From the human T2T-CHM13v2.0 reference genome, Homo sapiens: a DNA stretch of 64,000 nucleotides. The translations under genes were made by a program, and so were the position numbers. Of this stretch, positions 18,270 to 33,894 are shown piece after piece; position 1 is the stretch's first letter; every line of letters starts with the position of its first letter. The notes under the pieces were generated by a model that made no database searches, was not told where the DNA came from, and saw nothing but the letters and a program-made list of their open reading frames with translations. The stretch covers positions 42,112,001 to 42,176,000 of the forward strand of contig CP068257.2 of NCBI GenBank assembly GCA_009914755.4, in the 5' to 3' direction.

Positions 18270-18371
18270 CTTGATGAAGTAGTTTGTCCCCGCGACCACC
18301 TGGCTCTTGAATGACACGGCCTTAAACACAGGGAACTTCTTGTTTTCTTTCTCTTCAAGCTGGGACCTCAC
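18270..18371 (-). CDS. CSTB: Cystatin B exon 2 ([34 protein letters not shown]; includes the QVVAG cystatin motif)
   Basis: 102 nt in frame. Acceptor ccttctgtctag|GTGAGG and donor AAG|gtagag on the minus strand. Encodes the conserved QxVxG (QVVAG) protease-binding loop. Confidence 0.92.
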
Positions 18372-18852: not shown

Positions 18853-19815
18853 CAGGCCTCAGCATCGCCTGGACCTGTTCTTGCTTGGGGCATCCCGTCG
18901 GTCACCAACCATGACAGCGAGGCGGGCCTGGCCTGTGCTCCACCGGAGGGGGCTTCTTGCACAGATGACCTGCTCATTTCAGCCCCTCCAGAATCTTCTG
19001 GCAGGCGCAGAGCAACAGGACGTCCATTTTACAGACGAGGAAACCGAGACACAGGGAAGGTTGCCATCTGCAACCCAGCCCGGTTTTTATCTTGTTTTTC
19101 TGTGTTTTAACTTTTTATTTAGACTTACAGTTTGAAACAGTGCTAGAATCGGAAGCATGTAAAGAAACCTGTGGACCTTTTATGCAGATACACTTAAGTT
19201 TTTAACCCATGTGCCTTATCACTGGGGACCTCTTGCACTCTCTCTCATGATTTTTTTCCCGAACTAGATGAGGATATTGACAAAGATTCTTGCTTGGCCA
19301 AACTGTAGTCGGGCTCCTGAAGCGCCTAGGCCACCTGCGCACTTCCTTGTAAAATCCACTTTTAGCAAGAAGCCTGGCTAAGTCAGTTTAGCCAGACCCT
19401 TCCCACCCGCTTGCTATCGGATCACCGTGGAGATCGGAGCCGGCTGCTCACCTGCGCCATCGCCGGCGACGCCCGATCACCCTGCCTGCCTGAAACCAGA
19501 AGCGCCTCATCCCTGGGGTTTCCTCTCAGAGACTGTCCATGCAGGGACCGCACCCTGCTCCGGGCTATCAATTCCCACTCGCCCTTGCTGTATTCAGCGG
19601 AGCCCAATGTCTCCCCAGCGGCGCCCCAGGCGCGGCCCCCCGCTGCTCACTCGCGCGCAGCGCCCGAGCGGAGGGAGGCCTCTCACGGCCACAGCCCGGG
19701 CCAGCCCAGGGGTGCGCAGCGGGGCCAAAGCGGCTTCTTTCGCTCCAGGAGCCGCGGCCGCGCCCTGAGGCTAAGGCAGGACTCCGGGCCGGCCCCGTCC
19801 CCGCGGCCCACCCAC

Positions 19816-19881
19816 CTGGTCGGCGATGTGCTGGGTCTCGGCGGTGGCCGGCTGCGTGGCGGAGGGCGCCCCGCACATCAT
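19816..19881 (-). CDS. CSTB: Cystatin B exon 1 coding part (MMCGAPSATQPATAETQHIADQ), donor CAG|gtgggt
   Basis: Reverse complement of ccgcacatcatcttggcggc gives gccgccaagATGATGTGCGGGGCGCCC.. matching the CSTB N-terminus. With exons 2 and 3 this gives 22+34+42 = 98 codons. Confidence 0.92.
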
Positions 19882-19960
19882 CTTGGCGGCGACGGAGGGA
19901 ATCTGGCGAGGGGACTCGGCGAGGGGACGCGGCGGCTCCTCAGCCCAAGTAGGCGCTGGG

Positions 19961-19970
19961 GTCACGTGAC
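19961..19970. promoter_or_regulatory. Perfect palindromic E-box of CLEAR type, GTCACGTGAC
   Basis: ggggtcacgtgacgcgcggg; the 10-bp palindrome lies 80 bp upstream of the CSTB ATG. Confidence 0.6.
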
Positions 19971-20055
19971 GCGCGGGCGGAACCAAGGGGCGGGGAGGAG
20001 GCACTTTGGCTTCGGAGTCCCCTGCGGGGTCGCGGTGGCCCCGCAAGAAGGGACG

Positions 20056-20091
20056 CGCGGGGCGGGGCGCGGGGCGGGGCGCGGGGCGGGG
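20056..20091 (-). repeat. CSTB: CSTB promoter dodecamer repeat (CCCCGCCCCGCG)x3 on the gene strand, the EPM1 expansion site; normal-length allele
   Basis: Plus strand reads cgcggggcgggg three times in perfect tandem (20056-20067, 20068-20079, 20080-20091), starting 175 bp upstream of the ATG. Each unit carries a GGGGCGGGG Sp1-like box. Confidence 0.93.
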
Positions 20092-20527
20092 AGCCTGGCC
20101 ACCACTCGCCGCAGGCTGGGTCTCCGCGCCCAGCGCTGGTGTCGGGAGGGAGCGCCCCCCTCCCGGGGCTGGTATCGTCTTTCCGGGCGCCGAGTCACAC
20201 GGACCGGGGCGGGGGCGCGGCCGGGTGTCGCCGGTGGGTTGGGCGCGCAGGGTGGGACGATAGGGAAGGGGCAGTCGGAGTAGGCGCAATCCTGCAGGGT
20301 GGCGGGGTCCGGGCCGCGCACGAGGGAGGGCGGGGCGCAGCGCTGCAGGGGTCAGGGGTCAGGGGTCCCGGCCCCGCGGGAGCAGGTGTGCGGGCTGCAG
20401 TGGACATCACCGCTTGTGACCGAGAACACTGAAGGCTGAAGGGGGTGGACAGAGGGGCCCAGGGAGGGGGAGACGGCGCCCACGCGCTCCAGGCTGGGTG
20501 GGGGCAGGGGGTAGATCAGAGGGATGA

Positions 20528-32284: not shown

Positions 32285-32712
<428 letters not shown>

Positions 32713-32740
32713 ACCCCTGGTTTTAAAAATAAAGTTTCGA

Positions 32741-32893
32741 GCCGAGAGTGGTGGCGCCCGTGGTCCCAGCTCCTCGGGAGGCTGAGGCTGGGGGATCCCT
32801 GGAGCCCGCGAGGCAAAGGCTGCAGTGAGCCGAGATCGCGCCTTGCACTCCAGCGTGGGTAACAGAGCGAGACCCTGTCTCAGGAAAAAAATA
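32741..32893 (+). mobile_element. Alu right-half fragment (sense)
   Basis: gagccgagagtggtggcgcccgtggtcccagctcctcgggaggctgaggctggggg..gcagtgagccgagatcgcgccttgcactccagcgtgggtaacagagcgagaccctgtctcaggaaaaaaa. Confidence 0.85.
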
Positions 32894-32939
32894 CAAGTGG
32901 GGTTATAAATAAAATGAGATTAAAAAACAACAGATCTTT

Positions 32940-33240
32940 GCCTCAGAATCCCGACCCACCGCAGCCCCAGCGAGGCGCAGGCGCAGGCGCAGGCGCGCGC
33001 TCGCTGGTTCCGCCCATGCGCACAGGCAGGGAGCGCGCGCCCCCTCTGTAGCCTTCGGCCTCCGGGGGCTGCAGTTGCGCGGCTCGGCCACTGCGCGGCG
33101 GTGGCGTGCGCCTGGGCGGTGTCGCGGGCTGTGACGTCACGCCACGCGCCGGGGCCAGGAGGAGGCGGGCGCAGGAGGCGCGTGCTCAGTGTGCTGGGTA
33201 CCAGGCGACTCCGGGACAGGGGGTCTCGGCCGTCGGCGTC
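32940..33240 (+). promoter_or_regulatory. RRP1: RRP1 CpG-island promoter and 5' UTR region; the island continues to about 33700 across exon 1
   Basis: Abrupt switch from Alu-rich DNA to CpG-dense sequence (gcaggcgcaggcgcaggcgcgcgc, GC boxes, CRE TGACGTCA) ending at the first ATG (33241, strong Kozak gtcATGg). No upstream ATG in frame. Confidence 0.75.
33132..33139. promoter_or_regulatory. Perfect palindromic cAMP-response element TGACGTCA (CREB/ATF site)
   Basis: ggctgTGACGTCAcgccacgcg, 102 bp upstream of the RRP1 ATG. Confidence 0.6.
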
Positions 33241-33373
33241 ATGGTTTCGCGCGTGCAGCTCCCGCCTGAGATCCAGCTGGCTCAGCGCCTGGCGGGGAAT
33301 GAGCAGGTGACCCGGGACCGGGCGGTGAGGAAGCTCCGGAAATACATCGTCGCCAGGACTCAGCGGGCCGCAG
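33241..33373 (+). CDS. RRP1: RRP1 (NNP-1/Nop52) exon 1 coding part: MVSRVQLPPEIQLAQRLAGNEQVTRDRAVRKLRKYIVARTQRAA(G)
   Basis: ATG at 33241 with Kozak context. Translation matches the RRP1 N-terminus I recall. Donor cag|gttggc at 33374. Confidence 0.9.
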
Positions 33374-33894
33374 GTTGGCGGGGGTGTGGGCGGCTGGCGT
33401 CTCGGGGGCCGGCTGGGCTGGTGCGGGTGTGGGCGGCGGCGGCCGGAGCTGGGGGCCCTCCGAGCCCTGTGGAACCTCCACGTGGCCGGGCCGGGCAGGC
33501 GGGGTCCACTGGCCTGTTCCCGCTGTTACCGGCCCACGGCCCCCGCCGCCGCTTTCCCTCGTGGTGCGGTGACTCTGGTCCCTCTGCGAGAACGCTCCTC
33601 CCCAGCCCCGTAACCCCTTTCCTAGCTCAGGCGTCCCCTCCCTCCAGTAGACCATGTACTCCTGCTGCCCTGCTGTTTGGGCACCCAGTATTTTTCCCTC
33701 ATGGCAGCATTTCCCACTGTTTGCAGTTTTCTGTTTTGCGTTAATTATTGGATTGTTTTCCGATTTCCACTCGAGAGTACCTCTCTGAGGGCCGAGAATC
33801 TACTTCTTGTTCATGGTACCAGGTGGTTCTCCGAGCGTGGTCCCCCATCAGCAGTAGCATCCCCTGGACATTTGTTAGAAATACACGTTCTATG

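What the first reader, a model, noticed from the sequence alone, without database searches (positions are those of the whole stretch)
19961..19970. Perfect CLEAR-type palindromic E-box (GTCACGTGAC) at the CSTB core promoter
The full 10-bp palindrome GTCACGTGAC is the consensus of the CLEAR element bound by TFEB/TFE3 (MiT family) that coordinates lysosomal gene expression. It also contains a canonical CACGTG E-box (USF/MYC/MAX). It sits about 80 bp upstream of the CSTB initiator ATG, in or next to the 5' UTR/TSS, and about 85 bp from the dodecamer repeat. CSTB encodes an inhibitor of lysosomal cathepsins, so direct MiT/TFE control would be biologically coherent. I do not know whether this specific site has been functionally characterised. 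Repeat expansion would move upstream Sp1 boxes away from this E-box.
Basis: partly seen in the sequence, partly recalled or inferred. Interest (0 to 1): 0.55.

Follow-up and report, generated by a model that had tools for sequence, protein, structure and literature searches.

The report
Conserved CLEAR-type E-box in CSTB promoter
The 10-base palindrome GTCACGTGAC just upstream of the human cystatin B gene is real and has been kept at the same place in mammals from human to opossum and echidna, so it is almost certainly a working docking site for USF and/or TFEB-family transcription factors, but which factor uses it could not be tested here.

Summary
Observation confirmed. GTCACGTGAC lies at 19961-19970. 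It is the only copy in 64 kb and the only one of 11 CACGTG sites with T and A flanks. It sits 80 bp upstream of the CSTB ATG (minus strand) and 86 bp from a three-copy dodecamer array.

I fetched the orthologous promoters of 12 other mammals and an ostrich. A TCAYGTG site lies 60-150 bp upstream of the ATG in 11 of 12 mammalian lineages. It forms the only alignable block of the proximal promoter, next to a GC box. Where the central CpG has decayed (pig, opossum, second elephant site), the T/A flanks survive as TCATGTGA. Myotis has CACCTG; ostrich has no site.

The flanks fit USF and MiT/TFE factors and argue against MYC-MAX.

My best reading is a shared USF / MiT-TFE (CLEAR-type) core-promoter E-box acting with Sp1. 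It would give basal expression and couple the cathepsin inhibitor to lysosomal gene induction.

Factor occupancy and function were not testable. No held paper tests this site, and the key older papers and ChIP lists were unavailable.

It is a new member of a known kind, of moderate interest. The main reason to care is that residual CSTB expression is what matters in EPM1.

The parts
19961..19970 (.). Palindromic class-B E-box / CLEAR consensus GTCACGTGAC (core CACGTG 19963-19968); positions -89 to -80 relative to the CSTB ATG
   Evidence: The orthologous site is retained in 11 of 12 mammalian lineages.
19959..19990 (-). Conserved proximal-promoter block (gene sense: TGGTTCCGCCCGCGCGTCACGTGACC), made of a GC box plus the E-box. 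It is the only block of the proximal promoter that aligns across mammalian orders.
   Evidence: MAFFT alignment A1. Anchored stack and consensus cCCGCgcGTCACgTGACcgC.
19975..19980 (+). GC box GGGCGG (Sp1-type), 5 bp upstream of the E-box in gene orientation. It overlaps the conserved TTCCGCCC block.
   Evidence: Conserved in eutherians. SP1 is shown to drive CSTB in PMC9736795.
19988..19993 (+). Second GC box GGGCGG, between the E-box and the dodecamer array
20056..20091 (-). Dodecamer repeat CCCCGCCCCGCG, three copies (normal allele); this is the EPM1 expansion site. Each copy contains a GC box.
   Evidence: Literature: PMC9655992 and PMC7348995.
19816..19881 (-). CSTB exon 1 coding part (ATG at 19881, splice donor after 19816)
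19944..19952 (-). Tentative initiator-like CCTACTT. A transcript-derived ORF (P0001) begins to match the genome about 69-71 nt upstream of the ATG. The same CCTACTT follows the elephant E-box.
   Evidence: This is an inference from one assembled contig, not a mapped transcription start site.
19321..20500 (.). CSTB promoter CpG island (72% G+C, 127 CpG)

Best explanation
The palindrome is a functional, selectively maintained core-promoter E-box of CSTB. It is read by the bHLH-leucine-zipper factors that accept a T-flanked CACGTG: USF1/USF2 and the MiT/TFE family (TFEB, TFE3, MITF, TFEC).

It works as a composite with an adjacent Sp1 GC box, within about 20 bp of the transcription start cluster of a TATA-less CpG-island promoter.

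Inferred model. In fed or resting cells USF dimers occupy the site and, with Sp1, set basal expression. When MiT/TFE factors enter the nucleus (starvation, lysosomal stress, phagocytic or lipid-laden myeloid states) they displace USF. CSTB then rises together with the cathepsin genes, so that the cytosolic cathepsin inhibitor scales with lysosomal protease load.

The central CpG makes binding sensitive to methylation.

The E-box, the two GC boxes and the start sites all lie downstream of the dodecamer array. They therefore stay together on expanded EPM1 alleles and are the likely source of residual transcription.

What is shown: presence, uniqueness, position, deep conservation, and flank conservation. 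What is inferred: which factors bind, the direction of their effect, and the coupling to lysosomal genes.
For: The sequence is an exact CLEAR consensus and is unique in the window.

Conservation. TCAYGTG lies within -200 to -40 of the ATG in 11 of 12 mammalian lineages, against a 0.2-4% chance per lineage in dinucleotide shuffles. The Poisson-binomial P is about 7e-20 if lineages are treated as independent. An unbiased k-mer survey finds only GC-box words and CACGTGAC (8 of 12) shared among the promoters. The block aligns while its surroundings do not.

Flanks. T is kept in 10 of 12 lineages and A in 10 of 12, both in 8 of 12, within sequence that is 55-86% G+C.

CpG-decayed versions. Pig and opossum are TCACATGA in gene sense, which reads TCATGTGA on the other strand. 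Elephant's second site reads TCATGTGA directly. MITF binds TCATGTGA with only a moderate loss relative to TCACGTGA, and the 5' T prevents MYC binding (PMC10539308).

Elephant shows site turnover with retention: two tandem sites next to a decayed ancestral one.

The USF2 ChIP motif is GTCACGTG. USF2 with HDAC1 sits on CLEAR motifs in nutrient-rich cells and competes with TFEB, and TFE3 and MITF co-occupy USF2 sites (PMC11436898).

SP1 drives CSTB transcription (PMC9736795).

CSTB is a DAM1 signature gene listed alongside CTSB and CTSD, and MITF is a proposed driver of the DAM signature (PMC11482930). In a marker list for post-stroke macrophages, Cstb appears together with Hexa, Hexb, Lipa, Ctsz and Mitf (PMC13115867).

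Promoter constructs from expanded alleles keep 28-36% of control activity (PMC9655992).
Against: No occupancy or reporter data for this site could be obtained.

In the held TFEB papers I checked closely, 'CSTB' either means cathepsin B (PMC7291113) or most probably does (PMC13324857), so they give no support.

In liver cancer data TFEB is low and CSTB is high (PMC7967237). This is correlative and argues against simple TFEB dependence.

Myotis has changed the core to CACCTG. Musk deer, canids and Mus pahari keep the T/A flank on only one half-site. The requirement is therefore not absolute.

USF alone could explain the conservation.

The P-value ignores shared ancestry.

The position relative to the transcription start is uncertain. 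One human contig starts just downstream of the site, while a mouse contig and a Bos gene model include it.

An ostrich promoter lacks any such site.
Confidence: 0.55

Rival explanations
1. A housekeeping E-box used by USF only. USF1/USF2 bind constitutively and, with Sp1, keep the CpG-island promoter open. MiT/TFE factors do not regulate CSTB to any meaningful extent, and the match to the CLEAR consensus simply reflects the fact that the USF and MiT/TFE optima are identical.
For: USF2's in vivo motif is GTCACGTG (PMC11436898). The conserved extended flank CACGTGACC equals the USF half-palindrome GGTCACGTGACC, which I recall rather than tested here. CSTB is broadly expressed from a CpG-island promoter. 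No held paper lists cystatin B as a validated TFEB target.
Against: Full TCATGTGA sites are retained after CpG decay in pig, opossum and elephant. That variant is documented as a good MITF site, whereas USF is generally CACGTG-centred. CSTB is listed alongside CLEAR-type lysosomal genes in phagocytic myeloid signatures. Where tested, USF2-bound CLEAR sites are also TFE3/MITF sites.
Confidence: 0.28
2. The site serves another family that binds CACGTG: MYC/MAX/MXD, BHLHE40/41, CLOCK-BMAL1, MLX-MondoA, SREBP or HIF/ARNT. It would link CSTB to growth, circadian, glucose, sterol or hypoxia signals.
For: All of these recognise CACGTG or ACGTG cores. The site contains ACGTG on both strands. From my own knowledge, BHLHE40 prefers TCACGTGA, and MYC is reported to compete with MiT/TFE at lysosomal genes (Annunziata 2019, cited in PMC11436898).
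Against: 5' T flanks prevent MYC binding (PMC10539308). Hypoxia did not raise CSTB (PMC9736795). The CACATG variants in four lineages destroy the ACGTG/HRE core and the strict CACGTG that most of these factors need.
Confidence: 0.1
3. A chance palindrome in a CpG island with no function of its own. The apparent conservation is a by-product of CpG-island composition or of a constrained 5' UTR.
For: A GC-rich island raises the frequency of CG-containing words. Bare CACGTG is at chance level in the window.
Against: The local expectation is 2-4e-4. The per-lineage chance of TCAYGTG is 0.2-4%, yet it is seen in 11 of 12 lineages. A and T flanks are conserved in sequence that is 55-86% G+C. The surrounding 5' UTR and promoter do not align. 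Elephant duplicated the site instead of losing it.
Confidence: 0.04

Closest known systems
CLEAR elements of lysosomal and autophagy genes (TFEB/TFE3/MITF targets such as LAMP1, CTSD, ATP6V0D1; Sardiello 2009 and Palmieri 2011, recalled; PMC11436898)
   Same: Identical 10-bp consensus GTCACGTGAC. Located in a CpG-island promoter within about 100 bp of the start site. The gene is functionally tied to lysosomal proteases. USF2 would be expected to compete at the same motif.
   Different: CSTB encodes a cytosolic/nuclear inhibitor, not a lysosomal resident. Only a single site is present, whereas many CLEAR genes have several. No TFEB occupancy or induction was shown here or in any held paper. I could not check whether CSTB is in the published list of 471 direct TFEB targets (recalled figure), because Palmieri 2011 is not held.
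USF-dependent proximal E-boxes of housekeeping CpG-island promoters (adenovirus major late promoter type, GGCCACGTGACC)
   Same: CACGTGACC half-site. Partnership with Sp1 GC boxes. Broad expression.
   Different: The classical AdML site lies about 60 bp upstream of a TATA-directed start site. Here the site lies within the start-site cluster of a TATA-less promoter, and it is a full T/A-flanked palindrome.
MITF M-box / TYR-enhancer type sites (TCATGTGA, TCATGTGC)
   Same: The pig, opossum, elephant and musk deer orthologous sites are of this type.
   Different: These occur in a ubiquitously expressed gene, not a pigmentation gene. They arose by CpG decay of a CACGTG site, not as lineage-specific enhancers.

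Membership tests
CLEAR element (MiT/TFE target site) | Sequence matches GTCACGTGAC, or at least TCACGTGA with the 5' T and 3' A flanks | tested here: met
   Exact 10/10 match at 19961-19970. Both flanks are present, uniquely among the 11 CACGTG sites in the window.
CLEAR element (MiT/TFE target site) | Located in the proximal promoter close to the transcription start site | tested here: met
   80 bp upstream of the ATG, inside the promoter CpG island. A transcript-derived ORF suggests a 5' end about 11 nt downstream of the motif. The exact start site was not mapped.
CLEAR element (MiT/TFE target site) | Evolutionary conservation of the site in orthologous promoters | tested here: met
   Present in 11 of 12 mammalian lineages, including a marsupial and a monotreme. 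Lost in Myotis and absent in ostrich.
CLEAR element (MiT/TFE target site) | Occupied by TFEB, TFE3 or MITF in vivo (ChIP) | not testable with these tools
   No ChIP tracks are available. Literature searches found no statement on this site.
CLEAR element (MiT/TFE target site) | The gene is induced by TFEB overexpression or activation, and induction is lost when the motif is mutated | not testable with these tools
   The reports of 'CSTB' induction by TFEB that I checked closely either refer to cathepsin B, as the CTSB-type primers and 'CSTD/CSTL' naming show (PMC7291113), or most probably do (PMC13324857).
USF-bound E-box | CACGTG core with the GTCACGTG / CACGTGAC flank preference | tested here: met
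   Sequence. USF2 ChIP motif is GTCACGTG (PMC11436898). The conserved flank is CACGTGACC.
USF-bound E-box | USF1/USF2 occupancy in vivo | not testable with these tools
   The search for CSTB plus USF gave no relevant paper.
MYC/MAX target E-box | CACGTG without a 5' T flank (preferred form CCACGTGG) | tested here: not met
   T and A flanks are on both sides in human and are conserved in 10 of 12 lineages each. The 5' T prevents MYC binding (PMC10539308).

The most novel reading that the evidence does not exclude
CSTB is an unrecognised, evolutionarily ancient (stem-mammal) member of the CLEAR network. On this reading mammals hard-wired their main cytosolic cathepsin inhibitor to the same TFEB/TFE3/MITF-versus-USF2 switch that controls the cathepsins themselves.

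The E-box, the GC boxes and the start sites all lie downstream of the dodecamer array. Expanded EPM1 alleles would therefore keep this switch. Residual CSTB expression could then be raised with drugs that activate TFEB/TFE3 or relieve USF2 repression, such as mTORC1 inhibitors or GSK3-beta inhibitors including lithium.
Probability: 0.35. Interest if true: 0.6.

Novelty: new member of a known kind. Interest (0 to 1): 0.4.

Why it matters
EPM1 is a disease of too little CSTB transcription from an otherwise intact gene, and how the repeat expansion lowers transcription is still unknown (PMC7348995). Published work on the promoter that I could reach concentrates on Sp1 and, from recollection, AP-1 sites and on spacing.

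A deeply conserved E-box next to the start sites, on the gene side of the repeat, is a candidate for the element that sustains residual expression. It is also a concrete handle for raising that expression.

More generally, it would show that cells scale a cytosolic protease inhibitor with lysosomal protease output through one shared cis-code. That would fit the listing of CSTB alongside cathepsin and other lysosomal genes in disease-associated microglia and post-stroke macrophage signatures.

If only USF uses the site, it is an ordinary housekeeping promoter element.

Tried and rejected
Literature. Ten full-text searches found no paper that tests or even prints this site. They combined CSTB or cystatin B with TFEB, CLEAR, E-box, MITF, TFE3, GPNMB and USF, and one searched for the literal site sequence in both orientations. 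The single sequence hit is an unrelated AML/LATS2 paper. Among the papers I checked closely, 'CSTB' means cathepsin B in PMC7291113, most probably does in PMC13324857, and is a Chinese grant code in PMC11697191.

Alakurtti 2000, Lalioti 1999 and Palmieri 2011 are not held. I therefore could not check the mapped start sites or the published TFEB target list. The USF2/TFEB paper has no supplement held as text.

Two metagenome scans, one for spliced human CSTB cDNA and one for exon 1 of any mammal, found nothing. I had hoped to read transcript 5' ends and add species.

I considered whether a CRE half-site (TGACG at 19967) is the conserved feature. It is not: it is missing at the orthologous site in at least six lineages.

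I considered a hypoxia element. I rejected it because the CACATG variants destroy the core and because hypoxia does not induce CSTB.

I considered an RNA hairpin role for the palindrome in the 5' UTR. I rejected it because a 10-nt perfect palindrome leaves no loop, and because the variants in other species are asymmetric.

MAFFT misplaced the sloth and Mus sites. I re-anchored them by hand.

Full report
**1. Is it there?**

Yes. GTCACGTGAC occupies window 19961-19970.

- It is the only copy in 64 kb, even when one mismatch is allowed.
- Dinucleotide-preserving shuffles of the window give 0.01 copies on average.
- From the composition of the surrounding 800-bp island alone, the expectation is 2-4e-4.
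- The bare hexamer CACGTG is not enriched in the window: 11 observed against 9.1 expected.
- Only the CSTB copy carries both the 5' T and the 3' A, and it is the only CANNTG in 19880-20320.

**2. Context**

The minus strand from 19881 reads MMCGAPSATQPATAETQHIADQ followed by a GT donor. Together with two further exons near 18371 and 17942, this reproduces human cystatin B.

RRP1 exon 1 lies on the plus strand at 33241, so the window is human 21q22.3.

The motif is 80 bp upstream of the ATG, inside a 1.2-kb CpG island (19321-20500, 72% G+C).

The EPM1 dodecamer is present as three copies at 20056-20091, 86 bp further upstream.

Two GGGCGG boxes (19975 and 19988) lie between the E-box and the repeat. 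Expansion would therefore not separate the E-box from its nearest Sp1-type sites, contrary to the emphasis of the finding.

**3.

The protein search returned annotated CSTB orthologues from eukaryotic genome assemblies. I used all twelve contig look-ups to fetch their loci. The species were Mus pahari, horse, elephant, rabbit, two canids, pig, two-toed sloth, opossum, musk deer, Myotis, echidna and ostrich.

Orthologous sites, read in gene sense with position relative to the ATG:

| Species | Position | Site |
|---|---|---|
| human | -87 | CGTCACGTGACC |
| rabbit | -83 | CGTCACGTGACC |
| sloth | -72 | CGTCACGTGACC |
| horse | -132 | TGTCACGTGACG |
| elephant | -147 | CCTCACGTGACC |
| elephant (second site) | -124 | CGTCATGTGACC |
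| Mus pahari | -119 | TGTCACGTGCCA |
| canids | -143 / -125 | C(A/C)CCACGTGACC |
| pig | -124 | CATCACATGACC |
| musk deer | -139 | CGGCACATGACC |
| opossum | -109 | GGTCACATGATG |
| echidna | -90 | GGTCACATGTGT |
| echidna (second site) | -62 | CTGCACGTGACG |
| Myotis (aligned site) | -100 | CGTCACCTGAGC |

Ostrich has no CACGTG or CATGTG within 600 bp.

In a MAFFT alignment, the block TGGTTCCGCCCGCGCGTCACGTGACCGCCGC is the only part of the proximal promoter that aligns across orders. An ungapped stack anchored on the core gives the consensus cCCGCgcGTCACgTGACcgC. Information content is 2.0 bits at CA..TG and falls to background within about 15 bp.

An unbiased count of shared words finds only GC-box words and CACGTGAC, the latter in 8 of 12 lineages.

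TCAYGTG occurs in the -200 to -40 interval in 11 of 12 lineages. The per-lineage chance in dinucleotide shuffles is 0.2-4%, which gives a nominal P of about 7e-20. That number treats lineages as independent and so overstates significance. Even so, neutral sequence does not stay alignable between eutherians, marsupials and monotremes, and the flanks here indeed do not align.

Elephant shows turnover with retention: a decayed CAGGTGACC at the ancestral place plus two new tandem sites.

I conclude that the site is under purifying selection and dates at least to the mammalian stem.

**4. What the substitution pattern says about the reader of the site**

The flanking T and A are each kept in 10 of 12 lineages, within sequence that is 55-86% G+C.

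In four lineages the central CpG has decayed to CA. In gene sense pig and opossum read TCACATGA, which is TCATGTGA on the other strand. Elephant's second site reads TCATGTGA directly.

According to PMC10539308:

- The 5' T facilitates MITF binding and prevents MYC binding.
- TCACGTGA is the highest-affinity MITF site.
- TCATGTGA is only moderately weaker.
- Single-flank M-boxes are more than 10-fold weaker.

This argues against MYC-MAX and is what one expects if a MiT/TFE-type reader contributes to selection.

It does not exclude USF. The USF2 ChIP motif is GTCACGTG, USF2 with HDAC1 sits on CLEAR motifs in fed cells and competes with TFEB, and TFE3 and MITF co-occupy USF2 sites (PMC11436898). 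Sequence alone cannot separate the two.

**5. Position relative to the transcript**

The evidence is tentative and mixed.

- A Logan-assembled, spliced human ORF (P0001) matches the genome only from about -71. That is 11 nt downstream of the motif, at a CCTACTT that recurs after the elephant site.
- A ruminant contig (P0045) appears, by eye against the musk deer upstream sequence, to begin roughly 40 nt downstream of its E-box. I did not compute this.
- A mouse ENA ORF (P0087) starts at the GTG of the E-box itself.
- The Bos javanicus gene model P0070 starts at the ATG created by CACATG, so those two models include the site.
- From memory, Virtaneva 1997 placed the most 5' start about 70 nt downstream of the repeat, which would be just upstream of the E-box.

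The site therefore lies within the dispersed start-site cluster. I could not map it more precisely.

**6. Mechanism**

I commit to the following at 0.55. The site is a shared USF / MiT-TFE core-promoter E-box acting with the adjacent Sp1 box.

- USF and Sp1 give basal expression. SP1 dependence of CSTB is shown in PMC9736795.
- Nuclear TFEB, TFE3 or MITF displace USF and raise CSTB together with the cathepsins.

Two pieces of circumstantial support exist. CSTB is a DAM1 signature gene listed alongside CTSB and CTSD, and MITF is a proposed driver of the DAM signature (PMC11482930). Cstb also appears in a post-stroke macrophage marker list together with Hexa, Hexb, Lipa, Ctsz and Mitf (PMC13115867).

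Because the module is downstream of the repeat, it persists on expanded alleles. Such promoters retain 28-36% activity in reporters (PMC9655992), and the island is unmethylated in patient blood (PMC7348995).

Rival readings, with my estimates:

- USF-only housekeeping element: 0.28.
- Another CACGTG reader: 0.10.
- No function: 0.04.

**7. Comparison with what is known, and novelty**

The site meets every sequence-level criterion of a CLEAR element: consensus, flanks, promoter position and conservation. The two functional criteria, occupancy and TFEB-dependent induction, are untestable here.

It fails the MYC-site criterion.

I found no held paper that characterises it. In the TFEB papers I checked closely, 'CSTB' means cathepsin B (PMC7291113) or most probably does (PMC13324857). 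Palmieri 2011, Alakurtti 2000, Lalioti 1999 and all ChIP atlases were out of reach, so it may already sit unremarked in genome-wide lists.

I class it as a new member of a known kind.

**8. Verdict**

The site is a real, constrained, CLEAR-type E-box whose factor identity is open and whose relation to Sp1 spacing was overstated.
- Interest is moderate (0.4). A CLEAR or USF site in a lysosome-linked housekeeping promoter would not surprise a specialist, but the depth of conservation and the position on the gene side of the EPM1 repeat make a simple, clinically relevant experiment worth doing.

Noticed in passing
window 19971-19990 (gene sense TGGTTCCGCCCGCGCG): A second conserved element lies directly upstream of the E-box. 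It is a GC box (CCGCCC) preceded by GTGGTTCC, and it is shared by human, rabbit, horse, pig, musk deer and Myotis and partly by opossum and echidna. The GTGGTT part resembles a RUNX core in musk deer (TGTGGTTT), and the TTCCG part resembles an ETS core. No factor was assigned.
   Followed up: partly
L004 2820-2885 (elephant): Two tandem MiT/USF-type sites (CTCACGTGAC and GTCATGTGAC, 23 bp apart) lie downstream of a decayed CAGGTGACC that aligns with the ancestral GGTTC-GC-box block. This looks like binding-site turnover with retention of function.
   Followed up: partly
L012 about 2895-2910 (Myotis yumanensis): The orthologous site reads GTCACCTGAGC, so the class-B E-box has become a class-A CACCTG, while the upstream GTGGTTCCGCCC block is intact. 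Bat CSTB proteins in the hit list (Myotis, Rousettus, Sturnira, Pteronotus, Glossophaga, Saccopteryx) are also 103 aa rather than 98 aa. Only one bat locus was sampled.
   Followed up: no
L008, L011, L010, L013 (pig, musk deer, opossum, echidna); protein P0070: CpG decay of CACGTG to CACATG creates an upstream ATG at the E-box. The Bos javanicus annotation (P0070, 149 aa) uses exactly this ATG (MTAAPALG...) as an in-frame N-terminal extension. This is probably an annotation artefact, but it implies that the gene model's transcript includes the E-box.
   Followed up: partly
proteins P0001, P0045, P0087, P0088, P0110: ORFs called on assembled spliced CSTB transcripts carry spurious N-terminal extensions read from the 5' UTR. 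The point where each stops matching the genome gives rough 5' ends. P0110 (species unknown) encodes ...SARVT..., which could correspond to GCACGTGAC, an E-box inside the transcript. This rests on back-translation only, and the contig DNA was not seen.
   Followed up: partly
window 20056-20091: The window carries the three-copy allele of the EPM1 dodecamer, and each copy contains a GGGCGG box. Only one further GGGCGG (20207) lies within 230 bp upstream of the array, and no perfect AP-1 site lies in 19880-20320 (nearest: CGAGTCA at about 20193).
   Followed up: yes
window 32641-33660 and 33241-33375: The RRP1 (Nop52) promoter CpG island and exon 1 are on the plus strand, divergent from CSTB at about 13 kb. 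Its intron-1 CACGTG (33479) is CCACGTGG, which is MYC/MAX-type rather than CLEAR-type.
   Followed up: partly
L014 2700-3003 (ostrich): The ostrich CSTB upstream region has no CACGTG or CATGTG within 600 bp. It has a TATTTAAAAAAAAAAAAAAAAAA tract, a CA-rich tract and GC boxes instead. The E-box module may be a mammalian innovation, but only one sauropsid was sampled.
   Followed up: no
window 20347-20366: A short tandem GGGGTCA repeat (ggggtcaggggtcaggggtc) lies in the distal part of the CSTB CpG island. It was not examined.
   Followed up: no
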